From: Minisyncoccota bacterium
GTDB taxonomy: Bacteria > Patescibacteriota > Minisyncoccia > Phycocordibacterales > CAIZLB01
Assembly (NCBI GenBank): GCA_021734945.1
Contig: JAIPIA010000003.1
Span: forward strand, 156,895 to 220,894
Direction: 5' to 3'
Length of the DNA stretch: 64,000 nt
The translations under genes and the position numbers were made by a program. The notes beneath the pieces are model-generated. The model ran no database searches, was not told the origin of the DNA, and worked only from the letters and a program-made list of their open reading frames with translations. Within the stretch, counting starts at the first letter, position 1. Each line of letters begins with the position of its first letter. This document shows, in pieces, positions 3,285-20,219 of this stretch.

Positions 3285-4790
3285 CTACTCAACTGAAGCA
3301 ACAAGCATCTCCTTCAACTTATCAATAGTCACTCGCTCCTGTTCACCAGTATCTCGATGTCGTACTGTTACAGTATTCAAAAGTGCAATACCATTTGCAT
3401 CAAGCTTAGCAGCACCACTTTCATCTGTCGCCTCGACTGTATCGAAGTCAATAACTACACAGAACGGCGTACCAATCTCATCTTGTCGTCGATATCGTTT
3501 ACCGATATTTCCATTATCATCAAAGGCAACTCGTCCTGGGAACACTTTTCGTAATGTGTTAAAAATTTCACGCGCTTTTTCAACAAGCTGTGGCTTATTT
3601 TTCAAAAGTGGAGAAACAGCTACGAGGATAGGTGCAATCTTTGGAGAGAACTTCATGTATGCACGTGGTTCACCACCAAGAGTATCTTCTCGATATGCAT
3701 TTGCCATTACAGCGAGAAGAAGTCGTCCGAGGCCGAATGTGGGCTCGATACAATGTGGAATAAAACGCTTTTTTGTAGCGTCCTCTTCTGATTCATCAAA
3801 ATATGAAAGGTCTACTTTTGATGCAGTGGTATGAGCATTGAGGTCAAAGTCTGTTCGATATGCAAGCCCAAGAAGTTCTTTTTGTCCAAATGGAAAATCA
3901 AACTCATGGTCAACACTATGCTTTGAATAATGCGCACGGTCTGATTCTGGAATTTCTACTTGATGAATTTTTGATGCATCAAGTCCGAGAGTATTGATAA
4001 GGAAATCTTTCTGTTCATTTTGAAAATAATCAAAACTCTCTCGCCAATCATTTGGACGAACAAAGTATTCTATCTCCATTTGTTCAAGTTCACGTACACG
4101 GAATATAAAATCACGAGGTGCAATTTCATTTCTAAAAGCCTTTCCAACTTGAGCGAGACCGAAAGGGAGTTTTGGATGAAATGAATCAACAACATTTTTA
4201 AAGTTCACGAACATACCTTGTGCTGTCTCAGGTCGAAGGTAAGAAACAGAAGAATCATCTTGAATAGCACCAACACTTGTCTGAAGCATCATATTGAACT
4301 GTCGAACATCGCCGAGTGGATTTCCTTCTGGGCTTTTGATTCCCTTTTCTTTTATAAGTGCATCCATTTGCTGAAGTGTCAGACCTTTTGGATGAGCTTT
4401 TTCATCACCTGTCTTTTCTACATAATCCTCAAGAAGATGATCTGCTCGATATCGCTTTTTAGTTTTGAGGTCTTCTACCAATGGATCAGCAAAACCCGCA
4501 ACGTGGCCACTCGCCTTCCATACATCCTGATTCATAAGAATAGCAGCATCGATACCATACATATCCTCACGGTCGAGAACAAAACGCTTCCACCAGAGAT
4601 TTTGAATATTGTTTTTCAATGCCACACCTAAAGGTCCATAATCCCATGTACCAGCAAGACCTCCGTAGATTTCAGAGCCTTGATAAATAAAGCCCTTTCG
4701 CTTTGAAAGTGAAATGAGCTTTTCCATAGTACCTTCTGGGTATGCTACTAATTCTTGGTCGGCGTGATTACTCGCGTTTTGTTCATTCAT
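3285..4790 (-). CDS. glyQS: glycine--tRNA ligase, dimeric alpha2 (GlyQS) type
   Basis: 501 aa; N-terminus and class II motifs match alpha2-type GlyRS (FIYQGSEIYGGLAGTWDYGPLG, FRNEIAPRDFIFRVREL). ATG confirmed at 4788-4790. Confidence 0.9.
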   Translation of the reverse strand: MNEQNASNHADQELVAYPEGTMEKLISLSKRKGFIYQGSEIYGGLAGTWDYGPLGVALKNNIQNLWWKRFVLDREDMYGIDAAILMNQDVWKASGHVAGFADPLVEDLKTKKRYRADHLLEDYVEKTGDEKAHPKGLTLQQMDALIKEKGIKSPEGNPLGDVRQFNMMLQTSVGAIQDDSSVSYLRPETAQGMFVNFKNVVDSFHPKLPFGLAQVGKAFRNEIAPRDFIFRVRELEQMEIEYFVRPNDWRESFDYFQNEQKDFLINTLGLDASKIHQVEIPESDRAHYSKHSVDHEFDFPFGQKELLGLAYRTDFDLNAHTTASKVDLSYFDESEEDATKKRFIPHCIEPTFGLGRLLLAVMANAYREDTLGGEPRAYMKFSPKIAPILVAVSPLLKNKPQLVEKAREIFNTLRKVFPGRVAFDDNGNIGKRYRRQDEIGTPFCVVIDFDTVEATDESGAAKLDANGIALLNTVTVRHRDTGEQERVTIDKLKEMLVASVE

Positions 4791-4958: not shown

Positions 4959-6947
4959 CTAGTTACTATCCGCCCCACCCACCTTATCATCACCATATTT
5001 GAATTTTGGATCTGTCTCAATCTTAATATCCAATGGTTCAGCTTTAATCTCTGTAATTTGACCTGTAAAATTATCCTTACCAGCAATCCTCTGATCCGTA
5101 ACGATAACTGGAGTAGAATTAATCTGACCAATACTTGGTAAGAATGAGACCTGGAAAGCAAAATCCTTTGCAGACTGTGAGTAACCTATTCCTGATTGCA
5201 TATCACCTACTCTCCATGATATTTGTTTTTTATCAGCATTAAATGTTACAGGACTATTGTTTGGATATGTTTGCCCTAGCCACTCTACGTACTGCGGAAG
5301 CGTCGCGGTATACACAACATCCTTTACACTATTGTATGAATTTTTAAGACTTACAAGCACTGTATATGTAGACGCTTGTTCAGGCATTGTAGGTATAGGG
5401 CCTGTATTAACAAAAGGTCCAACATTACGTACCAATCTTGTTGTAAGGTTTAAGTCTGAAGCTATTTTTACAGTTCGAGAAACGTTTGAAGATAGTTCTT
5501 CGGGTACCTTATCCTCATTCAATCGTTTTGCTCGAATAGAAAGTTCAACCTTTAAAGTCTGATTTTTAAATGTAGCGTTGTTTTCTGTACTAGGTTTAAG
5601 GGCAGCAAAACTAAATTGTAGTCGTCCTGTAGAACCAGACTTAACTTCAGCAAGTTCTTTAATTGTTGAATTATCCCAGACTATAGTGTTATCAACAGAA
5701 CGATAAAAACCCTGATTACCTTGAATAGATGACTTATCAAGCATTGGACCTGTGATTCTCGCTTGAATAACAGCGTCGTTTATAGGTACATCCAAATTAT
5801 TTTGATATGTAATTTCACCCTGAATTCCATCACCTGAATGAGCTACATACACGGGATCATTTTTTCCATCAAGAGAAATGTCCGCACTGAGAAACGGTCG
5901 CTTAAGTGTGATTGTTGTTGAATTATTTACAAATACTGTACCTATAGCCAACTTATCTGTTACGTCTTCTGTTCCTGTATAAAATCTAAATACTCGTTGT
6001 TGCAATTCTCCACCAAGAATACGTCCTCTCAATACTATTTCTCTTTCTTCACCAGGTTTAATATCTCCAAGAACCCATGTTGAATTATCACCAGCTGTTG
6101 ATGGCACTGCAGAAATGAAATCAAAACCAAATGGGTACTCAGCTTTAAAGATAAGGCCTTTTATAATTGAAGAACTATTTGAACGAACAGTAATTCTAAA
6201 TTCATTTTCCTGCTCTGGTACGACTTCAGATGCAGAATCAACATTTACAGAAATAGGCGAAGAGCCAATAAAAATTGGATACTGTTTATCTTTCAAAAAA
6301 ATATTTGTTGAACCCTCAATACGGTATTCTAGCGAGACCTTAATATTTTTCTTTGAATTTTCCTCACCAAATAATACAGATTTTATATTTTCACGCACTG
6401 TTTGTCCTTTTCCAATTGTTCCGAGAGAAATACGATCTTGTGTCATTGAAGTTACTCTATCATCAGCATTCCTTGTCCCCTCTGGATATGTAATAACAAG
6501 ATCAGCCAACAACAAATCTGTAGTGTTTCTATTTGTTATATCTACATCAAGAGAAAGTGCTTCACCTGCAGGACTTGTTACAGGTCCAAGGAGTCTGATA
6601 TCAATATTATTACTCGAAACAAAATTTGAACCTGTGTAAAAAGTATATCCAGCAAATCCAAGAGCAAGAACAAAAAATACAGAAACTACAGCCAAGATTC
6701 TCTTGAATGGATTTCCTTTAGATTTTATACTTCTTACATCTAGACCTTTTGCGCCTCCATATGAACTGAATGTTACAGCTTCCTCATCTTTTGCTATTTT
6801 TCCATCATCTTCATCGTCCTTCCACGAACTATTAACTATAACGCTGTGACGTTGCAGTCTCACTCTCGGCTCTTCTGGCATCTCTTCGCCAGAGTTTGAA
6901 AACAATTTCCGTTTTAGACCTTCTATTTTACTATCATCAATAGACAT
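4959..6947 (-). CDS. large membrane-anchored surface protein with repetitive beta-rich ectodomain, function unknown
   Basis: 662 aa with a single TM helix (ILAVVSVFFVLALGFAGYTFY) after a charged N-terminal region; the Asn/Thr/Ser-rich remainder has no catalytic motif. Confidence 0.5.
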   Translation of the reverse strand: MSIDDSKIEGLKRKLFSNSGEEMPEEPRVRLQRHSVIVNSSWKDDEDDGKIAKDEEAVTFSSYGGAKGLDVRSIKSKGNPFKRILAVVSVFFVLALGFAGYTFYTGSNFVSSNNIDIRLLGPVTSPAGEALSLDVDITNRNTTDLLLADLVITYPEGTRNADDRVTSMTQDRISLGTIGKGQTVRENIKSVLFGEENSKKNIKVSLEYRIEGSTNIFLKDKQYPIFIGSSPISVNVDSASEVVPEQENEFRITVRSNSSSIIKGLIFKAEYPFGFDFISAVPSTAGDNSTWVLGDIKPGEEREIVLRGRILGGELQQRVFRFYTGTEDVTDKLAIGTVFVNNSTTITLKRPFLSADISLDGKNDPVYVAHSGDGIQGEITYQNNLDVPINDAVIQARITGPMLDKSSIQGNQGFYRSVDNTIVWDNSTIKELAEVKSGSTGRLQFSFAALKPSTENNATFKNQTLKVELSIRAKRLNEDKVPEELSSNVSRTVKIASDLNLTTRLVRNVGPFVNTGPIPTMPEQASTYTVLVSLKNSYNSVKDVVYTATLPQYVEWLGQTYPNNSPVTFNADKKQISWRVGDMQSGIGYSQSAKDFAFQVSFLPSIGQINSTPVIVTDQRIAGKDNFTGQITEIKAEPLDIKIETDPKFKYGDDKVGGADSN

Positions 6948-6985: not shown

Positions 6986-7636
6986 CTACAAATGACTACT
7001 CTCAAGAGCTTTCTTAATATGCTTTTCAATTTTTATCCGAAACTCTAGTGATTCTTCTAAACTTAGTTTTTCAATTAACTCAATTTTCCAGACAAAAATA
7101 TCCCGTATCTCATCAAAATCCTTATCATCTGACCCATAGCCGAGAGATTCAAGAACTCTAAATTCAGTAATCAAAGTTAGCGATTTTAGTACATTCGATC
7201 TATGTGGAGAAGATGTAGGAGAGGTCTTAATAAGGTCTGAAAAATATTTTGAATTTTCAAAACAAAAGGTAAACAGTTTTGAGAGCATATCAAAAAGCTC
7301 TTCATGCTTTGCTTCGCCTGCTGTCAATCGTTTTACAAACTGTAATATTCCAGTCATAAACTTACGTACATATAAGGGAACTCTTTTGTCATACAAAGAA
7401 ATGAGTTTTTCCGCACTGGTTAGACGCCAATATTCTTTTCCACGAACGAGTGCAACTTTGGAAAATGACAAATCCTGTATAGAAGGACGCAACTTAGATT
7501 TCATTACCCTCACTCCCTGCGCAGCGACAAACAATAAACCAAGGTCAGCCGTAAAAAGCGTCAGCAATTTATTTGCCTCCCCTACATCCATACTATCTAT
7601 AATGAATGCCTTTGTTTGATAAATGTGATGAGACAT
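6986..7636 (-). CDS. recO: DNA repair protein RecO
   Basis: N-terminal OB-fold pattern KAFIIDSMDVGEANKLLTLFTADLGLLFVAAQGVR; length 216 aa. Confidence 0.55.
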   Translation of the reverse strand: MSHHIYQTKAFIIDSMDVGEANKLLTLFTADLGLLFVAAQGVRVMKSKLRPSIQDLSFSKVALVRGKEYWRLTSAEKLISLYDKRVPLYVRKFMTGILQFVKRLTAGEAKHEELFDMLSKLFTFCFENSKYFSDLIKTSPTSSPHRSNVLKSLTLITEFRVLESLGYGSDDKDFDEIRDIFVWKIELIEKLSLEESLEFRIKIEKHIKKALESSHL

Positions 7637-7688: not shown

Positions 7689-10600
7689 TTATATCTTTGT
7701 GACTTCGAGCAACGGTTCTTCTACCTCCACTTCAACATACTCCACTTTTTCAGCTTGAATTGGTTTCTTGAGCATTTCTTCATTTTTCTTCAAAATATCA
7801 AGAGTTGAGGATGAAGCGGAAACTGTAAGGACAATAAAATCACTTGGTATAAGGCCCGCATTCTTTCGAGCTTCCTGGACCCCACGAATAGCATCTCGCA
7901 CGATTCCCTCCTCTTTGAGTTCTACTGTAAGGTTCGTATCAAGAGCGAGTTCTGAGCCTTTTTTAACTTCTTTTACATTAAGTTCTTCTTTTATGATCTG
8001 TAGAAAATCTTCAGACAGTTCTATACCCGTTTCACTACTTGCCTCCTCATGAGTATACACAAATGAAGCGAGGGGTTGTCGAACTTTTATACCTGACTTT
8101 GCTCGTATGGCGAGACCAGTCTCTACAAGTTTTCGAGCAACTTTCATTGCATCAATCAAAGCATGATCAACAACTGGTAACGTTGGCCAGTCTGCCAAAT
8201 GAACACTCTCAGGCATAAGTACCGCTGAAGTAGAACTCACCCGAGCAATTTCATTTCGAATACTCTGGTACATATGCTCAGCCATAAATGGCACAAATGG
8301 AGCAATCAATTTTGATAAGGTGAGAAGTGCAAATCGAGTTGTCTGCATTGCTTGCTCTTTATCTTTTGCATCATCACCTTTGAATCTATCTCGTGAACGT
8401 CGAAGGTACCACGTAGATAAATCGTCTACAATATCTGCAATAGGTCGAGCAGCTTTATCAATCTGATATGTATCAAGACCTTTTTCTATATCGTTTTTAA
8501 GCGAAGAAAGACGAGCGACAATCCACTTATCAAGAACATTATCTGAGTGAGGTACCGAATCAGGAGTTAGTCCCTCTGATACTGGAACATGTTCCGCATA
8601 TAGCACATAAAATGAATATACATTTTCGAGTCTATTGAAAATCTTTTTATTGATTTCATCGAGAGTTTTTTCTGAAAAGAGAACTTCTTCTGAATGAGTC
8701 ACTGATGATGAAGCAATAAAATATCTAAGTGGGTCTACACCATATTTGTCAAAAGTTGGCTCCATCGGTGGATAGTTCTTAAGACTCTTAGACATCTTTC
8801 TGCCGTCTTCAGCCAACATCAAACCATTCACGATTACGTTTTTGTAAGGACTCTTACCGAACAAACCAACACCTAGCACCATAAGTGAATAAAACCATCC
8901 ACGAGTCTGATCTAACCCCTCTGCAATAAAGTCTGCGGGAAAAATAGGACTATTATTTTCTTCGAAAAGATCTTTATTCTCAAACGGATAATGAGCTTGT
9001 GCAAACGGCATCGCGCCAGAGTCATACCACACATCAAAAACCTCAGGCACTCGAACCATAGTTTCCTTTTCACCTGATTTTGCCTTTGTTCCATCAAGAA
9101 GTAGCAAACCCTCTTCAACCTCACTCTCCCATGTTACTCGATCTATATACGGACGATGCAAATCAAGCTCCATAGATTCATTATGTGGAAGTTGTTTAAA
9201 ATCCATTTCATGGAGTGAAGCGTTTGGGTCAGAATAATCTCTCCAACCAGACCGGAGGAGATCTCGACATGTTTGACCGTTAATCGTGTTAACCATAAGA
9301 CGTAGTGGTAATCCATGAGTAACAACAAGGATATTTTCGTCTTCATGTTTACTGTCTAGGTCATAGAGAAATTCTGCAGATCGCTTTTTAACATCTTCTA
9401 CAGACTCACCGTTTGTTCCTGGATTCTTCTTGTATACAGTATCGTGACGAGTTTTGAAGTATCCAGTTTCTGCTCTACCTGACCATTTACCACCTTCAAA
9501 ATCTCCACCTCCAACTTCTCGGAGACGAGTATCAAATACTATTTGAGTTTTATCTAGACCAAGAGCGTTAGCTACGTGTTCAGCAGTTTCTCGAGTTCGT
9601 CTGAAATCAGATGAATAGATTTTTGTAATCTTTTTTCCAGTTTCCTTTTGTCTAGCCAAAAGCTTTTGTGCTGCTTCTTCTACTTGTCCACGACCATGCA
9701 TTGTGAGACCATACTTTTCTCTTCCCGCTTCACTTGGATCTGAATTTATTACATCAAGCGTGTTTGACTCTGCTTCACCGTGACGCATAAGAGTAATATT
9801 GTTTCCTCTACTTTCAATTTTAGACTTGAGGTCTGAAACAGAACCAATAAATTCAACCTTACCCGTTTTTTGTCCTCGCCATATTGGAAGTGGAGCTCCC
9901 CAATATCTACTTCGTGAAATTGCCCAGTCACGAACATTTTCAATCCATTTACCAAATCGCCCTTCCCCTACTTCTTTTGGAATCCAATTTACTTTATTGT
10001 TTTCGGCAATCAATGTATCTTTCATATCTGTAACTCGAACAAACCATGACGATGTCGCATAGTTTAGAAGTGGAGTATCACATCGCCAGCAGTGTGGATA
10101 TGAGTGGACAAGTTTTTCTTTTGCAAAAAGAAGTGGTGAATTTGTTGAATTTTTTAACTGTGAAAGAAGCTTAATTACTTCAATATCTGTGAGTTGATGA
10201 TCACCTTTTGGTTTTGCATAAAGACCTGAAAGCGAGCCATTTCCTTCTTTTATTTTTCCATCTGGACCAACATGAATAATAACTGGCAAATTCATTTCTA
10301 CAGAAAGTTTGTAGTCATCGTCACCGAACGCAGGTGCAATATGTACGATACCTGTACCATCTTCTGCTGTTACAAAATCAGCACATTGAACCTTCCAAGC
10401 ATTAGCTCGCTTTGTTTCTTGGTTAGCAGAAAGTGTTCCTGTATTTGCATAAAAATCAAAAGGAGGCACATAGGAAATTCCTTCAAGCTCTGTCCCTGCT
10501 ACTTCTTTTAGAACAGTAGCTTCCTGAGGCAGAATATTTTTTTCTTTAAGTTTTGGAATTAAATCTGTAGCAACCCACAATTTAACAGAAATATCTTTTT

Positions 10601-11450
10601 GTGTAGTTTCAAGGAGTGAATATTTTAATTCTGGGTTTACAGCAAGCGCCGTATTACCTGGAAGTGTCCATGGCGTCGTTGTCCACGCTAAAAACGATTC
10701 ACCTTTTGGCGTACCCACAGCGCTGTCTGTCAGTGCCGTTCCTTCTGTGTCTCTTTTATTCAACAATTCAAATAGCACATACGCAGAAATATCTGGAATA
10801 TCTTTATACCCTTGTCCTACTTCAAAGTTCGAAAGTGTAGTTTGACATCGAGGACAAAATGGCATTACTTTGAAGGCTTCATACACAAAACCTTTATCCT
10901 GCAGGGTTTTGAATGACCACCAGACAGACTCTGTATAACTTGAATCCATAGTATGGTAATCATTTTCCATATCAACCCATCGTCCTGCCCTCCTTACAAG
11001 TCGCTTCCAATCTATGTCATAACGAAACACACTGTCTTTTGCCGCTTTATTAAATTTATCAATACCATATTCTTCAATGGCTTTTTTATCTGTAAGACCA
11101 AGCTCTTTCTCTATGAGATTCTCAATTGGAAGACCGTGACAATCCCAACCCCACTTTCGCGGAACATTATAGCCCTGCATTGTCTTATATCGAGGAATAA
11201 CATCCTTAATAGTTGAAGGAATCATGTGACCGAAATGTGGAAGACCAGTAGCGTACGGTGGCCCATCATAAAAGACGAAATTACCCTTAGGTGAGTCTTT
11301 CTCTAAACTTTTTTGAAATATATCGTGCTCCTGCCAAAAAGCCAAAACAGCTTCTTCTCGCAGGGCAGATTTTGTCTTGAGTGCATCGCCCGCATGTACC
11401 TCTGTCTGGGGCTTTGGATTGAATTCTGCCATGTGATTTTGCGAAATCAC
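7689..11450 (-). CDS. ileS: isoleucine--tRNA ligase, type 2, with a ~210-aa histidine phosphatase (PGAM/SixA-like) domain inserted in the catalytic core (nt ~9171-9809)
   Basis: Type-2 HIGH region GPPYATGLPHFGH and editing-domain motif WTTTPWTLPGN. Further IleRS anchors are WAISRSRYWGAPLPIW, HRPYID and KMSKS. Between IGS and HRPYID sits LMRHGEAESN ... SDFRRTRETAEHVA ... VVTHGLPLRL, where Thermus type-2 IleRS has only ~25 residues. Confidence 0.9.
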   Translation of the reverse strand: MISQNHMAEFNPKPQTEVHAGDALKTKSALREEAVLAFWQEHDIFQKSLEKDSPKGNFVFYDGPPYATGLPHFGHMIPSTIKDVIPRYKTMQGYNVPRKWGWDCHGLPIENLIEKELGLTDKKAIEEYGIDKFNKAAKDSVFRYDIDWKRLVRRAGRWVDMENDYHTMDSSYTESVWWSFKTLQDKGFVYEAFKVMPFCPRCQTTLSNFEVGQGYKDIPDISAYVLFELLNKRDTEGTALTDSAVGTPKGESFLAWTTTPWTLPGNTALAVNPELKYSLLETTQKDISVKLWVATDLIPKLKEKNILPQEATVLKEVAGTELEGISYVPPFDFYANTGTLSANQETKRANAWKVQCADFVTAEDGTGIVHIAPAFGDDDYKLSVEMNLPVIIHVGPDGKIKEGNGSLSGLYAKPKGDHQLTDIEVIKLLSQLKNSTNSPLLFAKEKLVHSYPHCWRCDTPLLNYATSSWFVRVTDMKDTLIAENNKVNWIPKEVGEGRFGKWIENVRDWAISRSRYWGAPLPIWRGQKTGKVEFIGSVSDLKSKIESRGNNITLMRHGEAESNTLDVINSDPSEAGREKYGLTMHGRGQVEEAAQKLLARQKETGKKITKIYSSDFRRTRETAEHVANALGLDKTQIVFDTRLREVGGGDFEGGKWSGRAETGYFKTRHDTVYKKNPGTNGESVEDVKKRSAEFLYDLDSKHEDENILVVTHGLPLRLMVNTINGQTCRDLLRSGWRDYSDPNASLHEMDFKQLPHNESMELDLHRPYIDRVTWESEVEEGLLLLDGTKAKSGEKETMVRVPEVFDVWYDSGAMPFAQAHYPFENKDLFEENNSPIFPADFIAEGLDQTRGWFYSLMVLGVGLFGKSPYKNVIVNGLMLAEDGRKMSKSLKNYPPMEPTFDKYGVDPLRYFIASSSVTHSEEVLFSEKTLDEINKKIFNRLENVYSFYVLYAEHVPVSEGLTPDSVPHSDNVLDKWIVARLSSLKNDIEKGLDTYQIDKAARPIADIVDDLSTWYLRRSRDRFKGDDAKDKEQAMQTTRFALLTLSKLIAPFVPFMAEHMYQSIRNEIARVSSTSAVLMPESVHLADWPTLPVVDHALIDAMKVARKLVETGLAIRAKSGIKVRQPLASFVYTHEEASSETGIELSEDFLQIIKEELNVKEVKKGSELALDTNLTVELKEEGIVRDAIRGVQEARKNAGLIPSDFIVLTVSASSSTLDILKKNEEMLKKPIQAEKVEYVEVEVEEPLLEVTKI

Positions 11451-12945: not shown

Positions 12946-13830
12946 CTAAATACAATCGTTGATATACTTTGTCCAACCAGCCATGCATTTAGTCGAGGTC
13001 GCCCACAAATCTTTCATTGGAGCATAAGGTACTGTAAAAACACCGAACGTTGTTGTTGTATTTGTACCTCCATAGCAATAAGAACCAAAAGCTGTTCCAT
13101 CAGCACATCCTTTGTATGTATATGGAGTTGATATATTACAAGTTGTTATAGTAGTAGCAGACAGAGTTGAGTCATTTAATATTCCTACAACTGCTTTAGG
13201 ATCAGTACATTCTGATGCGTCTTTTGGATTGTAAGCAAGCTTTTCACAATAAAATTTAAGACCTGGACCACCGTTGTTACGTGGACCCTCCCATGATGTA
13301 CAGCCAAATTCAAATGGTGAAACGCCGTGGTTTCTTCCAATCCCTTTATCATAACAAGCAACCAAAGGATCATATGATTTTCCAAAAGCATCACAGTATC
13401 CACTAACTGTTTTCCAATATCCACAAAAAGTTTTTCCATTTAAGTTTATTCTACTTGAACCATTTGGACACTGCAGCCTTGTAGCATTTTTTCTTGCCTG
13501 AACATAATCTTGCCAACTTGCATTACCATCAGCATCAGATACAAGAACTTTCCCTGCTCCGGGATTTCCACCTGTTATTTGAACCTTATCTTGCAACGAT
13601 GTACTTCCTGTTACAAGGAGACCCCCTACACCAAGTGTTCCATTCTTAATCTGACTTACATTTGAGATATTTAGAGGTGCAGCTGAGTTATTATCTGGAG
13701 CAGTTCCAGTTGGCTCACTCCACGCATATACTACGACACCAGAAATAGTGAAAAATAGAAAAGCTGACACTAACGCTGTAATGAAAGTTTCCTTTTTCAC
13801 AACTTGATTATATTTTTTAAAAAATGACAT
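12946..13830 (-). CDS. secreted/membrane-anchored cysteine-rich protein, paralog A of a tandem pair
   Basis: N-terminal TM segment, then AAPLNISNVSQIKNGTLGVGGLLVTG...GKVLVSDADGNASWQ, then a C-terminal domain with ~12 Cys (CGYW...NHGVSPFEFGCTSWEGPRNNGGPG...YC). Confidence 0.6.
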   Translation of the reverse strand: MSFFKKYNQVVKKETFITALVSAFLFFTISGVVVYAWSEPTGTAPDNNSAAPLNISNVSQIKNGTLGVGGLLVTGSTSLQDKVQITGGNPGAGKVLVSDADGNASWQDYVQARKNATRLQCPNGSSRINLNGKTFCGYWKTVSGYCDAFGKSYDPLVACYDKGIGRNHGVSPFEFGCTSWEGPRNNGGPGLKFYCEKLAYNPKDASECTDPKAVVGILNDSTLSATTITTCNISTPYTYKGCADGTAFGSYCYGGTNTTTTFGVFTVPYAPMKDLWATSTKCMAGWTKYINDCI

Positions 13831-13861: not shown

Positions 13862-14491
13862 TTAATTTGTTGGAGCAGGACCCGCCTTACAATACATCAT
13901 TCCTCCAGGACCACCACCATTTCCTGGTCCCTCCCATGCTGTGCAACCTGTAGCAGTAGGATTTACACCGTGATTTTTACCTACACCCATATCTTCGCAA
14001 TAAACTAAAGTATCTGTTCCATTACAATTATATGTTCCTCCACCAATAGATTTTGAGTACCCACAAAATGTCTGCCCGTTAATACTCATTTGTACTGAAG
14101 TTCCAGGACACTGTGCTTGTGCAGTTACATTACAAGTTGGTACAGGTGGTGGATACTGCCACGCTGCATTACCCTGAGCATCTGACATAAGTATCTTACC
14201 TACATCCTGGGTACCGTCTACGATTTTTACTGTTCCATTAAAGACTGACTGTCCAAAAACCCCAAGACCATTTACACCAAGAACTCCAGTCTTTTGCTGT
14301 GTTGCAGAACCTACGTTTATAGGAGCAGCGACGTTTCCAGCAGGAGGAGTCACTCCAGCACCAGGAGCAACCCATGCACTTGCAGCACTTGAAAAACCAA
14401 TTAAAACAACAGCAATCACGAGTGCGTATATAAATTGTGTAATTTGTTCTTTCATATTTTTTATATTATTGGATCTATTTAATATTTCCAC
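13862..14491 (-). CDS. secreted/membrane-anchored cysteine-rich protein, paralog B
   Basis: Same module order as 12946-13830: AAPINVGSATQQKTGVLGVNGLGVFG...GKILMSDAQGNAAWQ...CGYS...NHGVNPTATGCTAWEGPGNGGGPG...YC. Confidence 0.6.
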   Translation of the reverse strand: MEILNRSNNIKNMKEQITQFIYALVIAVVLIGFSSAASAWVAPGAGVTPPAGNVAAPINVGSATQQKTGVLGVNGLGVFGQSVFNGTVKIVDGTQDVGKILMSDAQGNAAWQYPPPVPTCNVTAQAQCPGTSVQMSINGQTFCGYSKSIGGGTYNCNGTDTLVYCEDMGVGKNHGVNPTATGCTAWEGPGNGGGPGGMMYCKAGPAPTN

Positions 14492-14851: not shown

Positions 14852-15892
14852 CTAGTGCAGTACACAAGCATTCACACACTCACGACACTCAGGAGAACAA
14901 AATGTAAATCCATGAGCAACTTTCAAGATATTTCGAAGTCGTGCTTCGTCTGATGGATTCTCCTCAATCATATGTTGAGCTTCTTTAATAGAATTAGAAA
15001 GACATTCTGCACAACAAAGCATTTTTAGATGACATTCTATATTTGCGCAATTTGTGTAGTTTTCTGTTGTAGCCTGACAGAGATCACACTTACCTACTAC
15101 AGGTCGCTCTATACCCTTATCAGCAGCAAAGTCCATTGTTTCTCGATTATCAAATACATATAGTGAACCAAGAAAATCTTCTCCAGGAAATTTTTCCATG
15201 TACTTATGCATACCACCATGAAGCTGATATACATTTTTAAAACCCTTTTCGATAATGTAACCTGAGGCTTTTTCACATCGAATGCCTCCTGTGCACACAG
15301 TAATAACTTTTTTACCTTTTTCTGAGGAGTCCTTAATCTGCTGGAGTTTTTCAGATTCACTAAGAACCTTTGGTAAATCACGAAAATTATCCATTTCAGG
15401 ATTTATAGAATTCTTAAAATGACCTACTTTAAATTCATAGTCATTTCGCATATCTATGATTTCAAAATCTTCGCCTGATTCATACCATTTCTTCAATTCT
15501 TCTGGTTCGAGATACTTCCCTGTTACTTTATTTGGATCAATGTCCGCTTCACCGTATCGGTCGAGACCAAGTGAAACAACCTCTTTTCGCACTTTTACTT
15601 TCATTTTTGGGAACGCAGTTCCGTCAGCTGTACCTGGACTATTTTTAAAAGGCATATCACTGAAATCGCCAAAAGTTGTTGCACGCATGAGTTCAATATA
15701 CTTCGTAGTTTTTTCTTTTAGACCTTCAAGTGTTCCATTTATTCCTTCATGTGCAATGAGAATTCGTCCCTTAAAACCAAGTTGTTCGCAAACTTCTTTG
15801 TGCCATTTTACAAAACCCTCAGGATCAGCTACGTGAGTGTATTTGTAATATAGAAGAATTTCGTATGGATTTTTAGGGTCAGTTTTAATCAT
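14852..15892 (-). CDS. trhO: rhodanese-domain protein of the YceA/TrhO family (tRNA U34 hydroxylase-like) with C-terminal Cys-rich zinc-finger-like tail
   Basis: The ILLYYKYT start and rhodanese active-site region VCTGGIRCEKAS match this family; the C-terminus has multiple CxxC pairs. Confidence 0.65.
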   Translation of the reverse strand: MIKTDPKNPYEILLYYKYTHVADPEGFVKWHKEVCEQLGFKGRILIAHEGINGTLEGLKEKTTKYIELMRATTFGDFSDMPFKNSPGTADGTAFPKMKVKVRKEVVSLGLDRYGEADIDPNKVTGKYLEPEELKKWYESGEDFEIIDMRNDYEFKVGHFKNSINPEMDNFRDLPKVLSESEKLQQIKDSSEKGKKVITVCTGGIRCEKASGYIIEKGFKNVYQLHGGMHKYMEKFPGEDFLGSLYVFDNRETMDFAADKGIERPVVGKCDLCQATTENYTNCANIECHLKMLCCAECLSNSIKEAQHMIEENPSDEARLRNILKVAHGFTFCSPECRECVNACVLH

Positions 15893-16076: not shown

Positions 16077-18002
16077 CTACATCTTCAGAGGAACACGTAT
16101 ACCGAGCACATCCAAACCATTTTTTATAACAATAGAAAACGCCTGAACTAGGGCGACTTTGTAAGGAGAGCTCGCGTCATCTACTTTTACAATCTGAGTG
16201 TTCGCATAAAAAGAGTTAAATGTTCCAGCGAGGTCAATGAGATAATTTGCCACATGATGTGGAGAAAGATCCTTCCATGATCGTTCAATAGTTTCTGGAT
16301 ATCGCGCGAGAGTTTTTTCAAGCTTGAGCATAGCGCCAAGATTTGAGCCATCAACACCGGCAGTATCTACCACATCAGCACTATTTCCATTCATATCAAC
16401 GTACTGAACAATTCCCTGTTCTTTAGCTTTGGCGAGAATAGATTTTGCTCGCACGTATGCATATTGTAAATATGGACCAGAATCACCTTCAAATGAAAGA
16501 GATTTTTCCGGATCAAAAATAATATCTCGTCCAAGTGATTGTCGAAGCACTGTGTATTTAATTGCCGCAACTGCAACATCTTTAGCAACTGCTTTTTTCT
16601 CATCTTCTGTCATGTCTCTGTCCTTCATCTTTTCGAGAGATTGTTCAATCATATCCATAAGTAGAGATTCACCTGTAATAACATCACCTGTTCGTGATGA
16701 CATTTTTCCAGTTGTAAGTTTGAGCATTCCATGAGAAACGTGTTTTGTCTTGGCTATTATTTCAGGAAAAATAAAAGAAGCTGACTTAAGTACAACCTTA
16801 AAATATTCATCTTGCTCGTTTGCCGTTACATACACACCGAGGTCGTACTTGTATATATCGTATTTTGTAGGTATAAGTCCGATTTCCTTTCCATCATATG
16901 TAGGTAAACCATCTTTATTGAGAAATACTCGTGTATGTAAGCCGTATTTTTCTCCTGGGAAAATAACAGCGCCATTACTCTCTTCAAAAATAGATGCGCC
17001 TTTTGGAGCCGTGTTTGCTTCCACAATTTCCTTGCCGATCTTTGTAACCTGACTTTCAAAAAAGTATCTATCAAATTTTGTTCCTAGTATTTCATACAAT
17101 TCCTCGAAGTGTTCGAGACTCCATTCCTTTCCTTTATCGTAGATTTCGTTAACTTGAACATCTGATCTCTCATAAATTTTTCGATTTAGTTCACGCACCT
17201 CATCCTCCATTTTTTTGAAATCAACTCCGTTTGCACGACCCTGTCCGTCTACCTCACCTGATTCTTTACATGCATCTTCAAGTTTTTTGAACTGCGTAGC
17301 ACCGAGCGCATAAGCTTTTCCAAAGTACGCAACCTTATCACTTATAGTTGCATCATCGTTTGGAATCCCAACATCCATAAGTCGAAGACCCCACATTGTG
17401 AGTGCAATATGTCGCCCAACATCACCTTGATAACAAAATCGCTTTACTTCCCCGCCATTCGCCTCAGCGAGACGCGCAAGTGATTCACCAGCAGTATTTG
17501 CCATGAGATGTCCAATATGAAAAACCTTGAAAGGATTCGGATCAGTATATTCAAATGCGATTTTCTTTCTTTCGCTATCTACACCTTGCTCAGACTGATT
17601 TGTTCCGTACATGTCACCATTACTTAAAATATCTGCAACTGACTTTCTATATACAGAATTTTTGAGTTGAAAATTTATAAACCCAGGACCAGCAATTTCT
17701 ATTTTCTCGATATCTGCAAATTCTTCAATATTTTCCTGACCAAATTTTAGTTTTTCAACAATTTCAATAGCCAAAGAAAGTGGACTCTTTTTAGCCTTTG
17801 GTGCATATACCATAGCAACGTTTGTAGCATAGTCACCATGTGACATATCAGCAGGCCGTTCTAGAACTATTTTTTTGATTTGTTCTGATGACTCCCCTTC
17901 AGTAAAAACACCCATTTCTGTGAGCACCTCGGCTATCTTCTTAATAATAGATTCTTTAATATTCATGTACTCATATATTACACAAAATAAGGGAAAATGC
18001 AC
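16077..18002 (-). CDS. argS: arginine--tRNA ligase; start likely the internal MNIKES
   Basis: ArgRS N-terminal add-1 pattern (ERPADMSHGDYATNVAM, GPGFINF), HIGH-like FHIGHL and C-terminal anticodon-binding domain. Confidence 0.85.
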   Translation of the reverse strand: MHFPLFCVIYEYMNIKESIIKKIAEVLTEMGVFTEGESSEQIKKIVLERPADMSHGDYATNVAMVYAPKAKKSPLSLAIEIVEKLKFGQENIEEFADIEKIEIAGPGFINFQLKNSVYRKSVADILSNGDMYGTNQSEQGVDSERKKIAFEYTDPNPFKVFHIGHLMANTAGESLARLAEANGGEVKRFCYQGDVGRHIALTMWGLRLMDVGIPNDDATISDKVAYFGKAYALGATQFKKLEDACKESGEVDGQGRANGVDFKKMEDEVRELNRKIYERSDVQVNEIYDKGKEWSLEHFEELYEILGTKFDRYFFESQVTKIGKEIVEANTAPKGASIFEESNGAVIFPGEKYGLHTRVFLNKDGLPTYDGKEIGLIPTKYDIYKYDLGVYVTANEQDEYFKVVLKSASFIFPEIIAKTKHVSHGMLKLTTGKMSSRTGDVITGESLLMDMIEQSLEKMKDRDMTEDEKKAVAKDVAVAAIKYTVLRQSLGRDIIFDPEKSLSFEGDSGPYLQYAYVRAKSILAKAKEQGIVQYVDMNGNSADVVDTAGVDGSNLGAMLKLEKTLARYPETIERSWKDLSPHHVANYLIDLAGTFNSFYANTQIVKVDDASSPYKVALVQAFSIVIKNGLDVLGIRVPLKM

Positions 18003-18065: not shown

Positions 18066-18926
18066 CTAATTACCTAACACCTTCCCTACCTCCTTCCAAA
18101 CCATCTCGTGTATTTCATCTATTGAAAGTAATTTCCCTTCTGGATGTTCTGCTGTTTTAGGAGCACAGTCTATAACAGTCCAACCAAACTTTTTTGCCAC
18201 ATACAAAAATGCCTCACTTGCCTTTCTCATATGATCTTGATCTGCTTCGTGAATATCTGTCTTTTTACCCTTGAGATATTCTTTATCTGGACGACTAGCA
18301 ATGAGACGTTGATTGGTTTCAGGATCTACATACAAAACAATTGTTAGATCAGGTCGTGGAATTTTAAATATTTCAAATTCAAGATTATCGAGCCACTCAA
18401 GATATTTGTCTCGCTCTACAAGATTATCTATTTTTCCAGCTTGATGTCCCATACTTGCAGATACATATCTATCAGATACGAGAATAGTTCCCGCTTCCAA
18501 CTTTTTCTTCATATCAAATGAGTGATCATATCGATCAACTGCATAAAACATAGATGCAACATACGGACCAACATCGAGCGCTGTGCCGAAACCACCATGC
18601 AAATATTTTTCAACAAGATAACATGAGGGTGTACCGTACCGTGGAAAATCCATTGTTTGTATTAATGAGTCTCTTGCACCCAAAGTAGCAATGTCGTTTA
18701 CTTTTTCATCAGCATTTATTCCATTAGCAGTCGCATCATTTTCAGGGTCTGTATCCTCATCGACTTCAGCATCAGCTCCATGCGGAGCAAAAAGACTCTT
18801 CTCACCTGAGGCAAGACTAGCACCTTCCGAAATAAGTCGTTCAAGGAGTTTTGCAGTCTGAGTCTTTTTTCCAGAACCATCAGTACCTTCTATTACAATG
18901 AGTTTACCTTTTGAGGTTTGGTACAT
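18066..18926 (-). CDS. tmk: thymidylate (dTMP) kinase with an acidic ~45-aa insertion
   Basis: P-loop IVIEGTDGSGKKTQ, DRY motif and LID region. Confidence 0.8.
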   Translation of the reverse strand: MYQTSKGKLIVIEGTDGSGKKTQTAKLLERLISEGASLASGEKSLFAPHGADAEVDEDTDPENDATANGINADEKVNDIATLGARDSLIQTMDFPRYGTPSCYLVEKYLHGGFGTALDVGPYVASMFYAVDRYDHSFDMKKKLEAGTILVSDRYVSASMGHQAGKIDNLVERDKYLEWLDNLEFEIFKIPRPDLTIVLYVDPETNQRLIASRPDKEYLKGKKTDIHEADQDHMRKASEAFLYVAKKFGWTVIDCAPKTAEHPEGKLLSIDEIHEMVWKEVGKVLGN

Positions 18927-18935
18927 GTATGTCGT

Positions 18936-20219
18936 TTATATTTTTATTCCCTTCAAAACCTTATCAATTTTTTCTGCTATTTTTTTAAAATCTGCTTCTT
19001 TCTTTCCACGAGTAGTTTCCGCTGGAGTACCAAGTCGAATACCTGATGGATCAAACGGAGAACGTTTTTCGCCTGGCACTGTATTTTTATTACAAATGAT
19101 TCCAGCCTTTTCAAGCTCAAGCTCAGCTACTTTTCCTGGAATTCCTCCTGCGCCAAGGGCCATTTCGCCGTGTTTAATACTTCTTGCTGCAATTTCAGAT
19201 ACTTTCTCTCCATTCATCCATGTATCAACAAGTACCATATGACTATCAGTTCCATCGGCTACTACATGCCAACCTCTCTTCTGAAGTTCGCTTGCGAGCA
19301 CCTTTGCATTTTTTATAACCTGCTTTGCGTATGATTTAAACTTTGCATCGGTTGCCTCTTTGAGAGCAACTGCAATACCTGCAATCTGACTCTCGTGTGG
19401 ACCACCTTGAAGACCTGGAAATACTGCCTTATCAATTTTTTTGTACAACTCTCGTGAATCTATTCTCGAAAAAATCATTGCACCTCGTGGACCACGAAGA
19501 GTTTTGTGAGTAGTTGTAGTTACAACATCAGCATATGGAAATGGACTTGGATATGCTTTACCAGCAATGAGCCCTGCAAGGTGTGACATGTCTACCATGA
19601 GGAGAGCGCCAGCTTCGTCTGCTATTTTTCTAAAACGCTTCCAATCAACTTCTCGTGGATAAGCAGTGAACCCCGCAACTATAATGGCTGGCTTTTCACT
19701 CTTTGCGAGTTCTTCTACGTAATCATAATCGAGCACTTCTGTCTCCGGATCAACAATATATGTAACTGGTTCCCAAACTTTTCCAGTAATAGAAACTTTT
19801 TGTGCGTGTGAAAGATGTCCTCCTGATGTGAGAGCCATTCCCATAATCTTAGAACCAATAGGAGCAAGCCCTAGGTATACTGCTAAGTTTGCATTAGCAC
19901 CTGACCATGGTTGTACATTTACATGCCACTTACTTTTGTGTGGGTTTTTATCACTAAACTTTTCAACATGTTCACCTTTATCTAAACCAAAAAGTTTTAT
20001 AGCTCTCTCTTGTGCAAGCAATTCAAGCTGATCGACAACTTGGTTTCCACCGTAGTATCGTGCACCTGGATATCCTTCTGCATATTTATTATCAAAAACT
20101 GAACCGAGGGCTTCCAGTGAATCTGCTGAGCAATAGTTTTCTGAGGCAATAAGATTAATTACACTTTTTTGTCGTTTCTTTTCAGCATCTATAAGTTTCT
20201 TGATTTGGAGGTCTTTCAT
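18936..20219 (-). CDS. glyA: serine hydroxymethyltransferase
   Basis: NLIASENY..., PLP-lysine region TTTTHKTLRGPRGAMIF; 427 aa. Confidence 0.9.
   Translation of the reverse strand: MKDLQIKKLIDAEKKRQKSVINLIASENYCSADSLEALGSVFDNKYAEGYPGARYYGGNQVVDQLELLAQERAIKLFGLDKGEHVEKFSDKNPHKSKWHVNVQPWSGANANLAVYLGLAPIGSKIMGMALTSGGHLSHAQKVSITGKVWEPVTYIVDPETEVLDYDYVEELAKSEKPAIIVAGFTAYPREVDWKRFRKIADEAGALLMVDMSHLAGLIAGKAYPSPFPYADVVTTTTHKTLRGPRGAMIFSRIDSRELYKKIDKAVFPGLQGGPHESQIAGIAVALKEATDAKFKSYAKQVIKNAKVLASELQKRGWHVVADGTDSHMVLVDTWMNGEKVSEIAARSIKHGEMALGAGGIPGKVAELELEKAGIICNKNTVPGEKRSPFDPSGIRLGTPAETTRGKKEADFKKIAEKIDKVLKGIKI

What the first reader, a model, noticed from the sequence alone, without database searches (positions are those of the whole stretch)
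9171..9809. Isoleucyl-tRNA synthetase with a complete histidine-phosphatase (PGAM/SixA-like) domain inserted in its catalytic core
The 1253-aa IleRS (7689-11450, minus) has all type-2 IleRS landmarks. It is about 200 aa too long. Thermus IleRS has ~25 residues between IGS and HRPYVD; this protein has ~210 aa there. The insert carries both catalytic His motifs of the histidine-phosphatase superfamily (LMRHGEAESN and VVTHGLPLRL) and the SDFRRTRETAE substrate-arginine motif. It is in-frame with no stops, so it is not a pseudogene or intron-like insertion. A phosphatase module inside a synthetase active-site domain could act on a phosphorylated nucleotide or RNA end, or a regulatory alarmone. I am not aware of this architecture being described.
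Basis: partly seen in the sequence, partly recalled or inferred. Interest (0 to 1): 0.8.

Follow-up and report, generated by a model that had tools for sequence, protein, structure and literature searches.

The report
Phosphatase embedded in isoleucyl-tRNA synthetase
In this tiny-genome (Patescibacteria) bacterium, the enzyme that loads isoleucine onto tRNA carries a complete, apparently active phosphatase in one of its surface subdomains; many related species share the trait, it traces back to a gene that sits next to the synthetase gene in sister lineages, I found no paper describing it, and its substrate is unknown.

Summary
ORF 7689-11450 (-) is an intact type-2 IleRS (TIGR00392, 872 bits against a cutoff of 621). 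It carries a full His_Phos_1 domain at aa 552-752 (E=1.5e-32).

The domain lies in CP3, a peripheral and structurally variable subdomain, not in the active site. It is PhoE/PspA/CobC/GpgP-like, not dPGM- or SixA-like.

It is not an artefact. All 80 independently assembled Paceibacterota loci I inspected carry it in frame, out of at least 585 matching stretches in species-representative genomes. Arg556, His557, Arg618 and His712 are identical in 81/81 sequences and Glu645 in 79/81. pN is far below pS.

New here: the closest free-standing homologs are encoded directly beside insert-free ileS, in the window's own synteny (argS-hisphos-ileS-recO-DUF11). Other relatives carry copies at other IleRS sites, in tandem, or in ValRS.

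So this is a lineage-wide bifunctional IleRS-phosphatase that arose from a neighbouring partner gene. The substrate is unknown. NCBI names the protein only "class I tRNA ligase family protein", and no paper describing it was found.

Verdict: real, a new variant of a known kind, moderately high interest.

The parts
7689..11450 (-). ileS: type-2 isoleucyl-tRNA synthetase with embedded phosphatase. 1253 aa from GTG; NCBI's MCF7865722.1 starts at the ATG at 11432 (1247 aa).
11226..11237 (-). HIGH signature (HFGH, aa 72-75)
10341..10682 (-). CP1 editing-domain landmarks: TTTPWT (aa 257-262) to GTGIVH (aa 365-370)
   Evidence: the PDB editing-domain chains 1wk8 and 1udz align here
9897..9926 (-). 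CP2-CP3 linker WAISRSRYWG (aa 509-518). In yeast IleRS the equivalent stretch lines the tRNA CCA / reveromycin pocket.
   Evidence: PMC7955072
9810..9896 (-). N-terminal part of CP3 (aa 519-547): beta hairpin plus helix alpha1. The CxxC zinc ligands are lost here (RGQKTG).
9195..9797 (-). His_Phos_1 domain (aa 552-752), PhoE/PspA/CobC/GpgP-like phosphomonoesterase fold
9777..9785 (-). RHG motif (R556, H557 the predicted phospho-acceptor, G558). R and H are 81/81 conserved.
9597..9599 (-). R618 (SDFRRTRET), phosphate-binding Arg, 81/81
9516..9518 (-). E645, predicted general acid/base, 79/81
9315..9317 (-). H712 (VVTHG), second catalytic His, 81/81
9141..9200 (-). Conserved junction F751..PHN..ELDLHRPYID (aa 751-770), which returns the chain to CP3. 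It overlaps the most conserved segment measured, aa 753-775 (median pairwise identity 0.65).
9051..9170 (-). C-terminal part of CP3 (aa 761-800). The CxC zinc ligands are lost, and there is a lineage-specific variable stretch.
8784..8798 (-). KMSKS signature (aa 885-889)
8070..8531 (-). Anticodon-binding domain (Pfam Anticodon_1, aa 974-1127)
7728..8033 (-). C-terminal DUF5915 domain (aa 1140-1241); every type-2 IleRS inspected here also carries it
6986..7636 (-). recO, a synteny marker. The same argS...ileS-recO-DUF11 order is found in lineages with a free-standing phosphatase gene.
4959..6947 (-). DUF11/CLIPPER-type surface protein, synteny marker
16077..18002 (-). argS, synteny marker. In sister lineages the phosphatase gene sits between argS and ileS; here no free-standing copy exists.

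Best explanation
This is the organism's working type-2 IleRS. A complete, catalytically competent branch-1 histidine phosphatase has been inserted into the alpha1-alpha2 loop of its CP3 subdomain.

The phosphatase should hydrolyse a phosphomonoester through a phospho-His557 intermediate. Arg556, Arg618 and His712 would hold the phosphate, and Glu645 would act as the acid.

The module descends from a free-standing gene of about 190 aa. In sister lineages that gene lies immediately beside an insert-free ileS, often as a tight argS-hisphos-ileS unit. The fusion therefore makes an older two-protein partnership permanent, much as an editing factor can be either free-standing or inserted into a synthetase.

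The phosphatase most likely acts as a second, independent active site partnered with IleRS. Its substrate is probably a small, possibly nucleotide-like, phosphomonoester. It probably does not change the aminoacylation chemistry.

Shown: the architecture, intact catalytic residues, purifying selection, clade-wide distribution, origin next to ileS, and recurrence at other sites and in ValRS.

Inferred: that the partnership is functional, and the class of substrate.
For: Architecture and family scores.

The insert lies in CP3: (PMC7955072, PMC7191050), with the boundaries.

Not an artefact: 80 of 80 independent loci carry one in-frame ORF with the domain.

Active-site conservation: R556, H557, T583, G586, S614, R618, E682, R690 and H712 are 81/81; N563 is 80/81; E645 is 79/81.

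Selection: pN 0.113 against pS 0.768 versus ortholog L001. Median pairwise identity of the insert is 0.40, comparable to the editing domain (0.49) and anticodon domain (0.47) and above the C-terminal domain (0.34).

Structure: confident fold (pLDDT 88.9, pTM 0.85). The closest solved structures are the ~200-aa metabolite phosphatases GpgP, PspA, PhoE, HFP and CobC.

Adjacency: free-standing homologs P0156, P0025, P0021 and P0064 all lie next to insert-free ileS in the window's synteny. They form the sister clade of the inserts.

No free-standing copy lies within about 6 kb of any insert-bearing ileS, or anywhere in the window.

Independent insertion sites, tandem copies and ValRS hosts all keep the catalytic residues.
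Against: No substrate evidence of any kind exists.

No clade-specific pocket signature was found beyond the superfamily core.

Gene adjacency in compact CPR genomes can be fortuitous, and one adjacent arrangement is convergent rather than co-transcribed.

The IleRS-body tree is unresolved, so one origin versus several at the host-gene level is open.

The tools return no coordinates, so the distance and orientation of the phosphatase site relative to the synthetic site are unknown.

The papers read do not report CP3 contacting tRNA.
Confidence: 0.55

Rival explanations
1. Pure passenger. The phosphatase is an ordinary housekeeping metabolite phosphatase with no functional link to IleRS. It happened to lie next to ileS, was captured into a permissive surface loop (CP3), and is kept only because its own activity is needed. 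Copies elsewhere arose by intragenic duplication and by recombination between the paralogous ileS and valS genes.
For: CP3 is structurally variable among IleRSs and tolerant of change. The closest solved relatives are all small-metabolite enzymes. No specificity signature links it to nucleic acid or protein substrates. More distant free-standing relatives sit in metabolic neighbourhoods: transaldolase/DeoC/inositol-P and Mur ligase. CPR genomes are compact and mix functions within gene clusters.
Against: All four tested members of the sister clade are adjacent to ileS, in three different arrangements. Insertions recur at three or more different positions and in a second class Ia synthetase. 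Copies at other sites group with different free-standing lineages in the NJ tree, which argues for repeated capture rather than one accident (no support values). The junction region is the most conserved part of the protein.
Confidence: 0.25
2. Built-in repair or antitoxin site. The phosphatase removes a blocking phosphate from a macromolecule handled by the synthetase. Candidates are a 3'-phosphate or pyrophosphate on the tRNA CCA end (as added by toxSAS toxins or left by RNases), or a phospho-Ser/Thr placed on the synthetase by a HipA/HipT-like kinase.
For: The persistent association is with class Ia synthetases only: 112 of 113 long domain-bearing proteins. The fusion has a rigid, conserved junction. 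The CP2-3 linker just upstream lines the tRNA CCA pocket in yeast IleRS. Tandem amplification is reminiscent of arms-race loci. Kinase and pyrophosphokinase toxins that target synthetases and tRNA ends are established; this last point is from my own knowledge.
Against: To my knowledge no branch-1 histidine phosphatase is known to act on RNA 3' ends. The fold matches small-molecule enzymes rather than SixA/Sts/PGAM5-type protein phosphatases. There is no PADLOC match. No toxin-like genes lie beside ileS in the window. CP3-tRNA contacts are not reported in the papers read. Multiple tandem copies are hard to rationalise for self-dephosphorylation.
Confidence: 0.14
3. Non-catalytic sensor or scaffold. 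The domain binds a phosphometabolite or alarmone and regulates aminoacylation allosterically, or it merely replaces the CP3 zinc knuckle structurally.
For: 28 of 79 insert-bearing proteins, including this one, have lost both halves of the CP3 zinc site. The domain could therefore have taken over a structural role.
Against: The catalytic Arg/His/Arg/His set is identical in 81/81 sequences and Glu645 in 79/81, and it is kept in nearly every extra copy. That is the signature of retained catalysis. In addition, 41 of 79 proteins keep the zinc ligands together with the insert.
Confidence: 0.05
4. Artefact: an assembly chimera, a pseudogene, or two ORFs wrongly joined.
For: Some related entries are fragmented (L081, probably long-read indels) or carry an in-frame stop (P0107/L093).
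Against: The window ORF is uninterrupted. 80 of 80 independent assemblies from many studies show the same in-frame architecture. Purifying selection is strong. No compositional break is seen across 9171-9809.
Confidence: 0.01

Closest known systems
Type-2 ('eukaryote-like') IleRS, e.g. Thermus thermophilus IleRS (PDB 1ILE/1JZQ) and Priestia megaterium IleRS2 (8C8U)
   Same: Same enzyme family and domain order: Rossmann fold with HIGH and KMSKS, CP1 editing domain, CP2, CP3, anticodon-binding domain and DUF5915 C-terminus. 1ILE scores E=1.9e-206, and the TIGR00392 cutoff is passed.
   Different: None of the solved IleRSs has anything in the CP3 alpha1-alpha2 loop. About 250 residues here replace 27 in Thermus. 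The window protein has also lost the Thermus-type CP3 zinc ligands.
Small branch-1 histidine phosphatases: PhoE (1H2E/1EBB), PspA phosphoserine phosphatase (4IJ5), CobC alpha-ribazole phosphatase (6NRU), GpgP Rv2419c (4PZ9/6S2Q), riboflavin-pathway HFP (9MMH)
   Same: Same fold (target TM 0.72-0.78, E about 1e-11 to 1e-12). Same catalytic RHG...R...E...H set. Similar size of about 200 aa.
   Different: Those are free-standing enzymes with assigned substrates. The insert reaches none of their equivalog cutoffs: CobC 81 against 163, PspA 60 against 350, archaeal dPGM 70 against 225. It also has an extra C-terminal strand and linker (F751..PHN) that leads back into CP3.
Bifunctional RNase H / acid phosphatase (Rv2228c type, NCBIfam NF005567)
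   Same: A CobC-like histidine phosphatase fused to an enzyme of nucleic-acid metabolism. It is the second-best NCBIfam phosphatase match (76 bits).
   Different: That is an end-to-end fusion to RNase HI, not an insertion into a synthetase. The cutoff of 326 is not met. The functional link in that protein is also unresolved (own knowledge).
Bacterial ProRS INS editing domain versus free-standing YbaK/ProXp (own knowledge)
   Same: Same evolutionary pattern. An accessory catalytic module is a separate gene product in some lineages and an insertion inside the synthetase catalytic domain in others.
   Different: INS/YbaK are aminoacyl-tRNA deacylases with an obvious link to charging fidelity. Here the module is a phosphomonoesterase with no known place in the aminoacylation cycle.
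NCBIfam NF040702 'isoleucine--tRNA ligase, N-acetyltransferase domain-containing'
   Same: A curated precedent for an IleRS that carries an extra enzymatic domain. One relative, P0188, carries both His_Phos_1 and a GNAT domain.
   Different: It carries a different accessory domain (GNAT). The window protein scores 332 against a cutoff of 1999.

Membership tests
Isoleucyl-tRNA synthetase (TIGR00392 equivalog) | Whole-protein score above the curated cutoff | tested here: met
   872.3 bits against a cutoff of 621.4, in two stretches split by the insert
Isoleucyl-tRNA synthetase (class Ia) | HIGH and KMSKS signature motifs intact | tested here: met
   HFGH at aa 72-75 and KMSKS at aa 885-889
Isoleucyl-tRNA synthetase (class Ia) | CP1 editing domain present with its conserved motifs | tested here: met
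   TTTPWT at 257 and GTGIVH at 365. PDB editing-domain chains 1wk8 and 1udz align to aa 214-453.
Type-2 (Thermus/eukaryote-like) IleRS | Closer to Thermus/eukaryotic IleRS than to type-1 (S. aureus / E. coli-like), with a type-2 C-terminus | tested here: met
   1ILE scores 692 bits and IleRS2 8C8U 662 bits, against type-1 1FFY at 289 bits. DUF5915 C-terminal domain present.
Isoleucyl-tRNA synthetase | Aminoacylation and editing activity | not testable with these tools
   Inferred from intact motifs and purifying selection on the body: pN 0.07-0.09 against pS 0.56-0.69
Histidine phosphatase superfamily branch 1 (PF00300) | Score above the gathering threshold over nearly the full profile | tested here: met
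   113.3 bits against 21.7, profile positions 1-182 of 194
Histidine phosphatase superfamily branch 1 | Catalytic RHG His, two phosphate-binding Arg, Glu acid and second His, present and conserved in orthologs | tested here: met
   R556, H557, R618 and H712 are 81/81; E645 is 79/81; N563 is 80/81
Histidine phosphatase superfamily branch 1 | The alpha/beta/alpha fold of the family | tested here: met
   AF2 pLDDT 88.9. Foldseek probability 1.00 and target TM 0.72-0.78 to PspA, PhoE, GpgP and CobC.
Histidine phosphatase superfamily branch 1 | Phosphatase activity and substrate | not testable with these tools
No specificity signature was found.
Cofactor-dependent phosphoglycerate mutase (dPGM) | Equivalog or subfamily cutoff | tested here: not met
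   TIGR01258 21.9 against 81.7; NF038349 70.1 against 225; NF010713 20.6 against 305
SixA phosphohistidine phosphatase (TIGR00249) | Equivalog cutoff and the short (~155 aa) SixA architecture | tested here: not met
   30.5 bits against 74.5, and only the N-terminal 86 residues align
CobC alpha-ribazole phosphatase (TIGR03162) | Equivalog cutoff | tested here: not met
   80.7 against 162.9
PspA-type phosphoserine phosphatase (NF045917) | Equivalog cutoff | tested here: not met
   60.4 against 350. It is nevertheless the best PDB profile hit: 4IJ5, E=1e-26.
Known anti-phage defence proteins (PADLOC-DB) | Any model match | tested here: not met
   0 families for the insert

The most novel reading that the evidence does not exclude
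The embedded phosphatase is a third catalytic site of a class Ia synthetase and acts on the tRNA itself. It would strip a blocking 3'-phosphate or pyrophosphate from tRNA(Ile) (toxin- or RNase-inflicted damage) so that the same enzyme can then charge it. That would be a built-in tRNA end-healing or antitoxin activity, present as a separate partner protein in sister lineages and amplified in tandem in others.
Probability: 0.12. Interest if true: 0.9.

Novelty: new variant of a known kind. Interest (0 to 1): 0.66.

Why it matters
Aminoacyl-tRNA synthetases are among the best-studied enzymes. Extra catalytic domains inside their catalytic fold are rare and have so far concerned editing.

Here a phosphomonoesterase is kept with IleRS across a large part of the Patescibacteria, as a neighbouring gene, as a CP3 insertion, in tandem copies, and occasionally in ValRS. 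That points to an unrecognised biochemical link between a phosphatase reaction and class Ia aminoacylation in organisms with minimal genomes.

The link is directly testable. One can express the protein, screen phosphomonoesters and modified tRNA ends, and mutate His557.

There is also a practical consequence. NCBI labels these proteins only 'class I tRNA ligase family protein' or 'histidine phosphatase family protein, partial'. IleRS may therefore be scored as missing, or a spurious 'phosphoglycerate mutase' scored as present, in metabolic reconstructions of CPR genomes.

Tried and rejected
1. Assembly or pseudogene artefact: rejected.

2. dPGM, SixA, CobC or PspA membership: all curated cutoffs are missed.

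3. The genome-contig scan with the 16-sequence alignment A2 failed because no stretch was conserved enough. It was repeated with the 6-sequence alignment A3.

4. P0016 looked like a free-standing form. It is a frameshift-fragmented ortholog on a long-read contig.

5. The IleRS-body NJ tree (241 columns) did not resolve whether insert-bearing IleRSs are monophyletic.

6. A search for clade-specific pocket residues found nothing beyond the superfamily core.

7. PADLOC defence models: no hit.

8. The afdb50 fold library was unavailable, so UniProt/AFDB naming could not be checked.

9. Six literature queries found no description. A search for CP3-tRNA contacts gave nothing new.

10. A full-length structure prediction was not run. 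The tool returns no coordinates, so the key question, the distance and orientation of His557 relative to the synthetic site and the tRNA path, could not have been answered.

11. The ValRS with four copies (P0107) ends at an in-frame TAA with homology continuing beyond it, on 2x-coverage contigs. It is treated as doubtful. ValRS P0206 is the cleaner example.
Full report
**1. Observation**

The minus-strand ORF 7689-11450 encodes 1253 aa from a GTG start, with no internal stop. NCBI holds the same protein starting at the ATG six codons downstream. That entry is MCF7865722.1, 1247 aa, on a 230,953-bp contig, named only 'class I tRNA ligase family protein [Candidatus Paceibacterota bacterium]'.

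Pfam finds tRNA-synt_1 split in two, a His_Phos_1 domain at aa 552-752 (E=6.9e-31), then Anticodon_1 and DUF5915.

The protein passes the IleRS equivalog TIGR00392, 872 bits against 621. Its best solved relative is Thermus IleRS 1ILE (E=1.9e-206). That alignment breaks at query 544 / Thermus 479 and resumes at query 797 / Thermus 507.

HIGH (HFGH 72-75), KMSKS (885-889) and the editing-domain motifs are intact. Base composition shows no break across the insert.

**2. Where the insert sits**

In yeast and Candida IleRS, the segment between the 'W..SR.RYWG' linker and the second half of the Rossmann fold is the CP3 subdomain. Its topology differs between IleRSs, and in Thermus it carries a zinc-binding motif (PMC7955072, PMC7191050).

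The insert lies between the first CP3 helix (…IGSVSDLKSK…) and the conserved ELDLHRPYID. It is therefore in a loop of a peripheral, variable subdomain and not in the active site itself.

Among 79 insert-bearing relatives, 41 keep both the CxxC and the CxC halves of the zinc knuckle on either side of the insert. The window protein and 27 others have lost both.

**3. It is real and widespread**

A word-indexed protein search with aa 501-810 returned at least 15 fragments annotated PF00133+PF00300 at 31-43% identity. Sources name some of them Patescibacteria or Paceibacterota.

The best 80 loci are all labelled Paceibacterota, Parcubacteria or Patescibacteria, or carry generic labels. They include early GW2011 and RIFCSP genome bins.

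In all 80 loci the domain lies in frame inside a single long ORF, and no second copy occurs in the flanks.

An exhaustive search of 1.84 billion cluster representatives gave 4880 hits at E<=1e-3. Pooling the 150 listed best hits with the proteins, 113 proteins of at least 400 aa carry the domain, and 112 of them have a class Ia synthetase body.

Insert-free type-2 IleRS fragments at 50-54% identity also exist. Some are labelled Patescibacteria or Paceibacteria, so the trait is clade-restricted and not universal.

**4. The phosphatase looks active**

Across 81 inserts, R556, H557, T583, G586, S614, R618, E682, R690 and H712 are invariant. N563 is 80/81 and E645 is 79/81. This is the canonical catalytic set of branch-1 histidine phosphatases.

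Against the closest ortholog (L001), the insert has pN 0.113 against pS 0.768. The synthetase body has 0.07-0.09 against 0.56-0.69.

Family-wide, the insert's median pairwise identity is 0.40. That is similar to the editing domain (0.49) and anticodon domain (0.47) and above the C-terminal domain (0.34). The junction segment 753-775 is the most conserved of all, at 0.65.

AlphaFold2 on aa 501-810 with the fusion alignment gives pLDDT 88.9 and pTM 0.85.

The nearest solved structures are ~200-aa metabolite phosphomonoesterases: GpgP Rv2419c, PspA, PhoE, the riboflavin-pathway HFP and CobC. Target TM is 0.72-0.78, and the profile E-value is 1e-26 to PspA 4IJ5.

All curated subfamily cutoffs (dPGM, SixA, CobC, PspA, RNase H/acid phosphatase) are missed. 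The domain can therefore be placed only at superfamily level, in the PhoE/PspA/CobC neighbourhood.

**5. Origin and association with IleRS (the main new result)**

The free-standing proteins most similar to the insert are encoded beside insert-free ileS.

- P0156: argS, then a 3-nt gap, hisphos, a 1-nt gap, ileS (931 aa, one contiguous TIGR00392 match of 902 bits), an ORF, recO and DUF11. This is the window's own gene order. In the window the order on the minus strand is DUF11 4959-6947, recO 6986-7636, ileS 7689-11450 and argS 16077-18002.
- P0025: the end of argS, then hisphos overlapping ileS by 4 nt. That IleRS aligns to the window protein at 32-548 and 763-1013, with no insert.
- P0021: argS, GIY-YIG, hisphos, DnaJ, ileS (957 aa), an ORF, recO.
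- P0064: convergent with ileS, with a 4-nt overlap, on two contigs.

Three more distant free-standing relatives are not near ileS.

In an NJ tree of the domains (no support values), the CP3 inserts form one clade. Its sister clade contains all four ileS-adjacent genes.

The IleRS-body tree (241 columns) is unresolved. Insert-bearing and adjacent-type lineages interleave.

**6. Variations on the theme**

- P0151 has two tandem copies in CP3.
- P0148 is a complete 1419-aa gene on a 28.6-kb contig. It has an ordinary zinc CP3 but carries copies after 'CWFESGSMPYA' and before the anticodon-binding domain.
- P0132 has two copies after an intact CP3.
- P0206 is a ValRS (580 bits to NF004349) with a copy after 'DTWFSSG'.
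- P0107 is a ValRS with four copies, but it ends at an in-frame TAA on low-coverage contigs and is doubtful.
- P0188 combines IleRS, a REP-type tyrosine-transposase-like segment, His_Phos_1 and a GNAT domain.

Nearly all of these copies keep the catalytic residues.

**7. Interpretation**

The data show a bifunctional enzyme: a working IleRS with a catalytically competent phosphomonoesterase rigidly attached to CP3.

The adjacency in sister lineages, the local mutual exclusivity of 'adjacent' and 'inserted' forms, and the recurrence at several sites and in ValRS all argue that the pairing itself is selected. It resembles the way some editing factors are either free-standing or inserted into a synthetase (own knowledge).

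What the phosphatase hydrolyses cannot be read from sequence. No clade-specific pocket signature was found. No defence-system model matches. No toxin-like neighbours are present. The papers read do not report CP3 touching tRNA.

My ranking is:
- a small, possibly nucleotide-like, phosphomonoester substrate with a functional partnership: 0.55;
- a pure passenger: 0.25;
- macromolecular repair, either of the tRNA 3' end or of phospho-IleRS: 0.14;
- a non-catalytic role: 0.05;
- an artefact: 0.01.

**8. Novelty**

The architecture has long been present in public genomes, but only under generic names. Six full-text literature queries found no description.

It is a new variant of a known kind: a synthetase with an accessory catalytic domain. 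The type of domain, its location, its breadth of distribution, and the neighbour-to-insert history are new.

Noticed in passing
protein P0188 (from; no locus fetched): An IleRS that contains, in one reading frame, a REP-associated tyrosine-transposase-like segment (aa ~326-472, inside the editing-domain region), a His_Phos_1 domain in CP3, and a GNAT acetyltransferase after 'WFESGSMPYA...FPFEN'. The product ends at the GNAT domain. It could be a decaying gene or an extreme case of domain accretion.
   Followed up: partly
L093 366-3947 (also L094): A ValRS N-terminal half with four His_Phos_1 copies. The ORF ends at an in-frame TAA inside the fourth copy, and homologous sequence continues in the same frame after the stop. 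Coverage is about 2x. It may be a pseudogene, a sequencing error or read-through.
   Followed up: partly
window 7689-11450 (annotation issue): NCBI names this protein only 'class I tRNA ligase family protein', and names fragments of relatives 'histidine phosphatase family protein, partial'. IleRS could be scored as absent, or a PGM-like enzyme as present, in automated reconstructions of these genomes.
   Followed up: partly
L081 1937-4022: In a syntenic relative, an IS605 OrfB/TnpB-like gene and a Cas1 gene lie between argS and a frameshift-fragmented ileS.
   Followed up: no
L081 11250-12561: The gene in the position of the window's glyS is called as one product with both HGTP_anticodon and AI-2E_transport Pfam hits. 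It may be a fusion or a gene-calling or indel artefact on a long-read contig.
   Followed up: no
window 12946-13830 and 13862-14491 (-): Two ORFs (294 and 209 aa) between ileS and argS have no Pfam or NCBIfam match.
   Followed up: no
window 9810-9896 and 9051-9170 (-): The window IleRS has lost all four CP3 zinc ligands. Relatives have CxxC where it has RGQKTG, and CxC where it has TWESEVEEG. It also has a lineage-specific, poorly conserved stretch at aa 776-800. By contrast, 41 of 79 relatives keep the zinc site.
   Followed up: partly
window 18066-18926 (-): A dTMP-kinase-like protein scores below both curated cutoffs (102 against 193; 58 against 83). About 80 extra N-terminal residues precede the matched region.
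   Followed up: no
window 14852-15892 (-): A TrhO-type protein (oxygen-dependent tRNA U34 hydroxylase, 243 bits against a cutoff of 170) lies between ileS and argS. The window also holds GlyRS (3285-4790), ArgRS, SHMT (18936-20219), PolA (55634-58219) and seven tRNA genes between 31.4 and 50.4 kb.
   Followed up: no
window 11424-11450 (-): The start codon is ambiguous. The longest ORF begins at GTG 11450, while the public record uses ATG 11432.
   Followed up: yes
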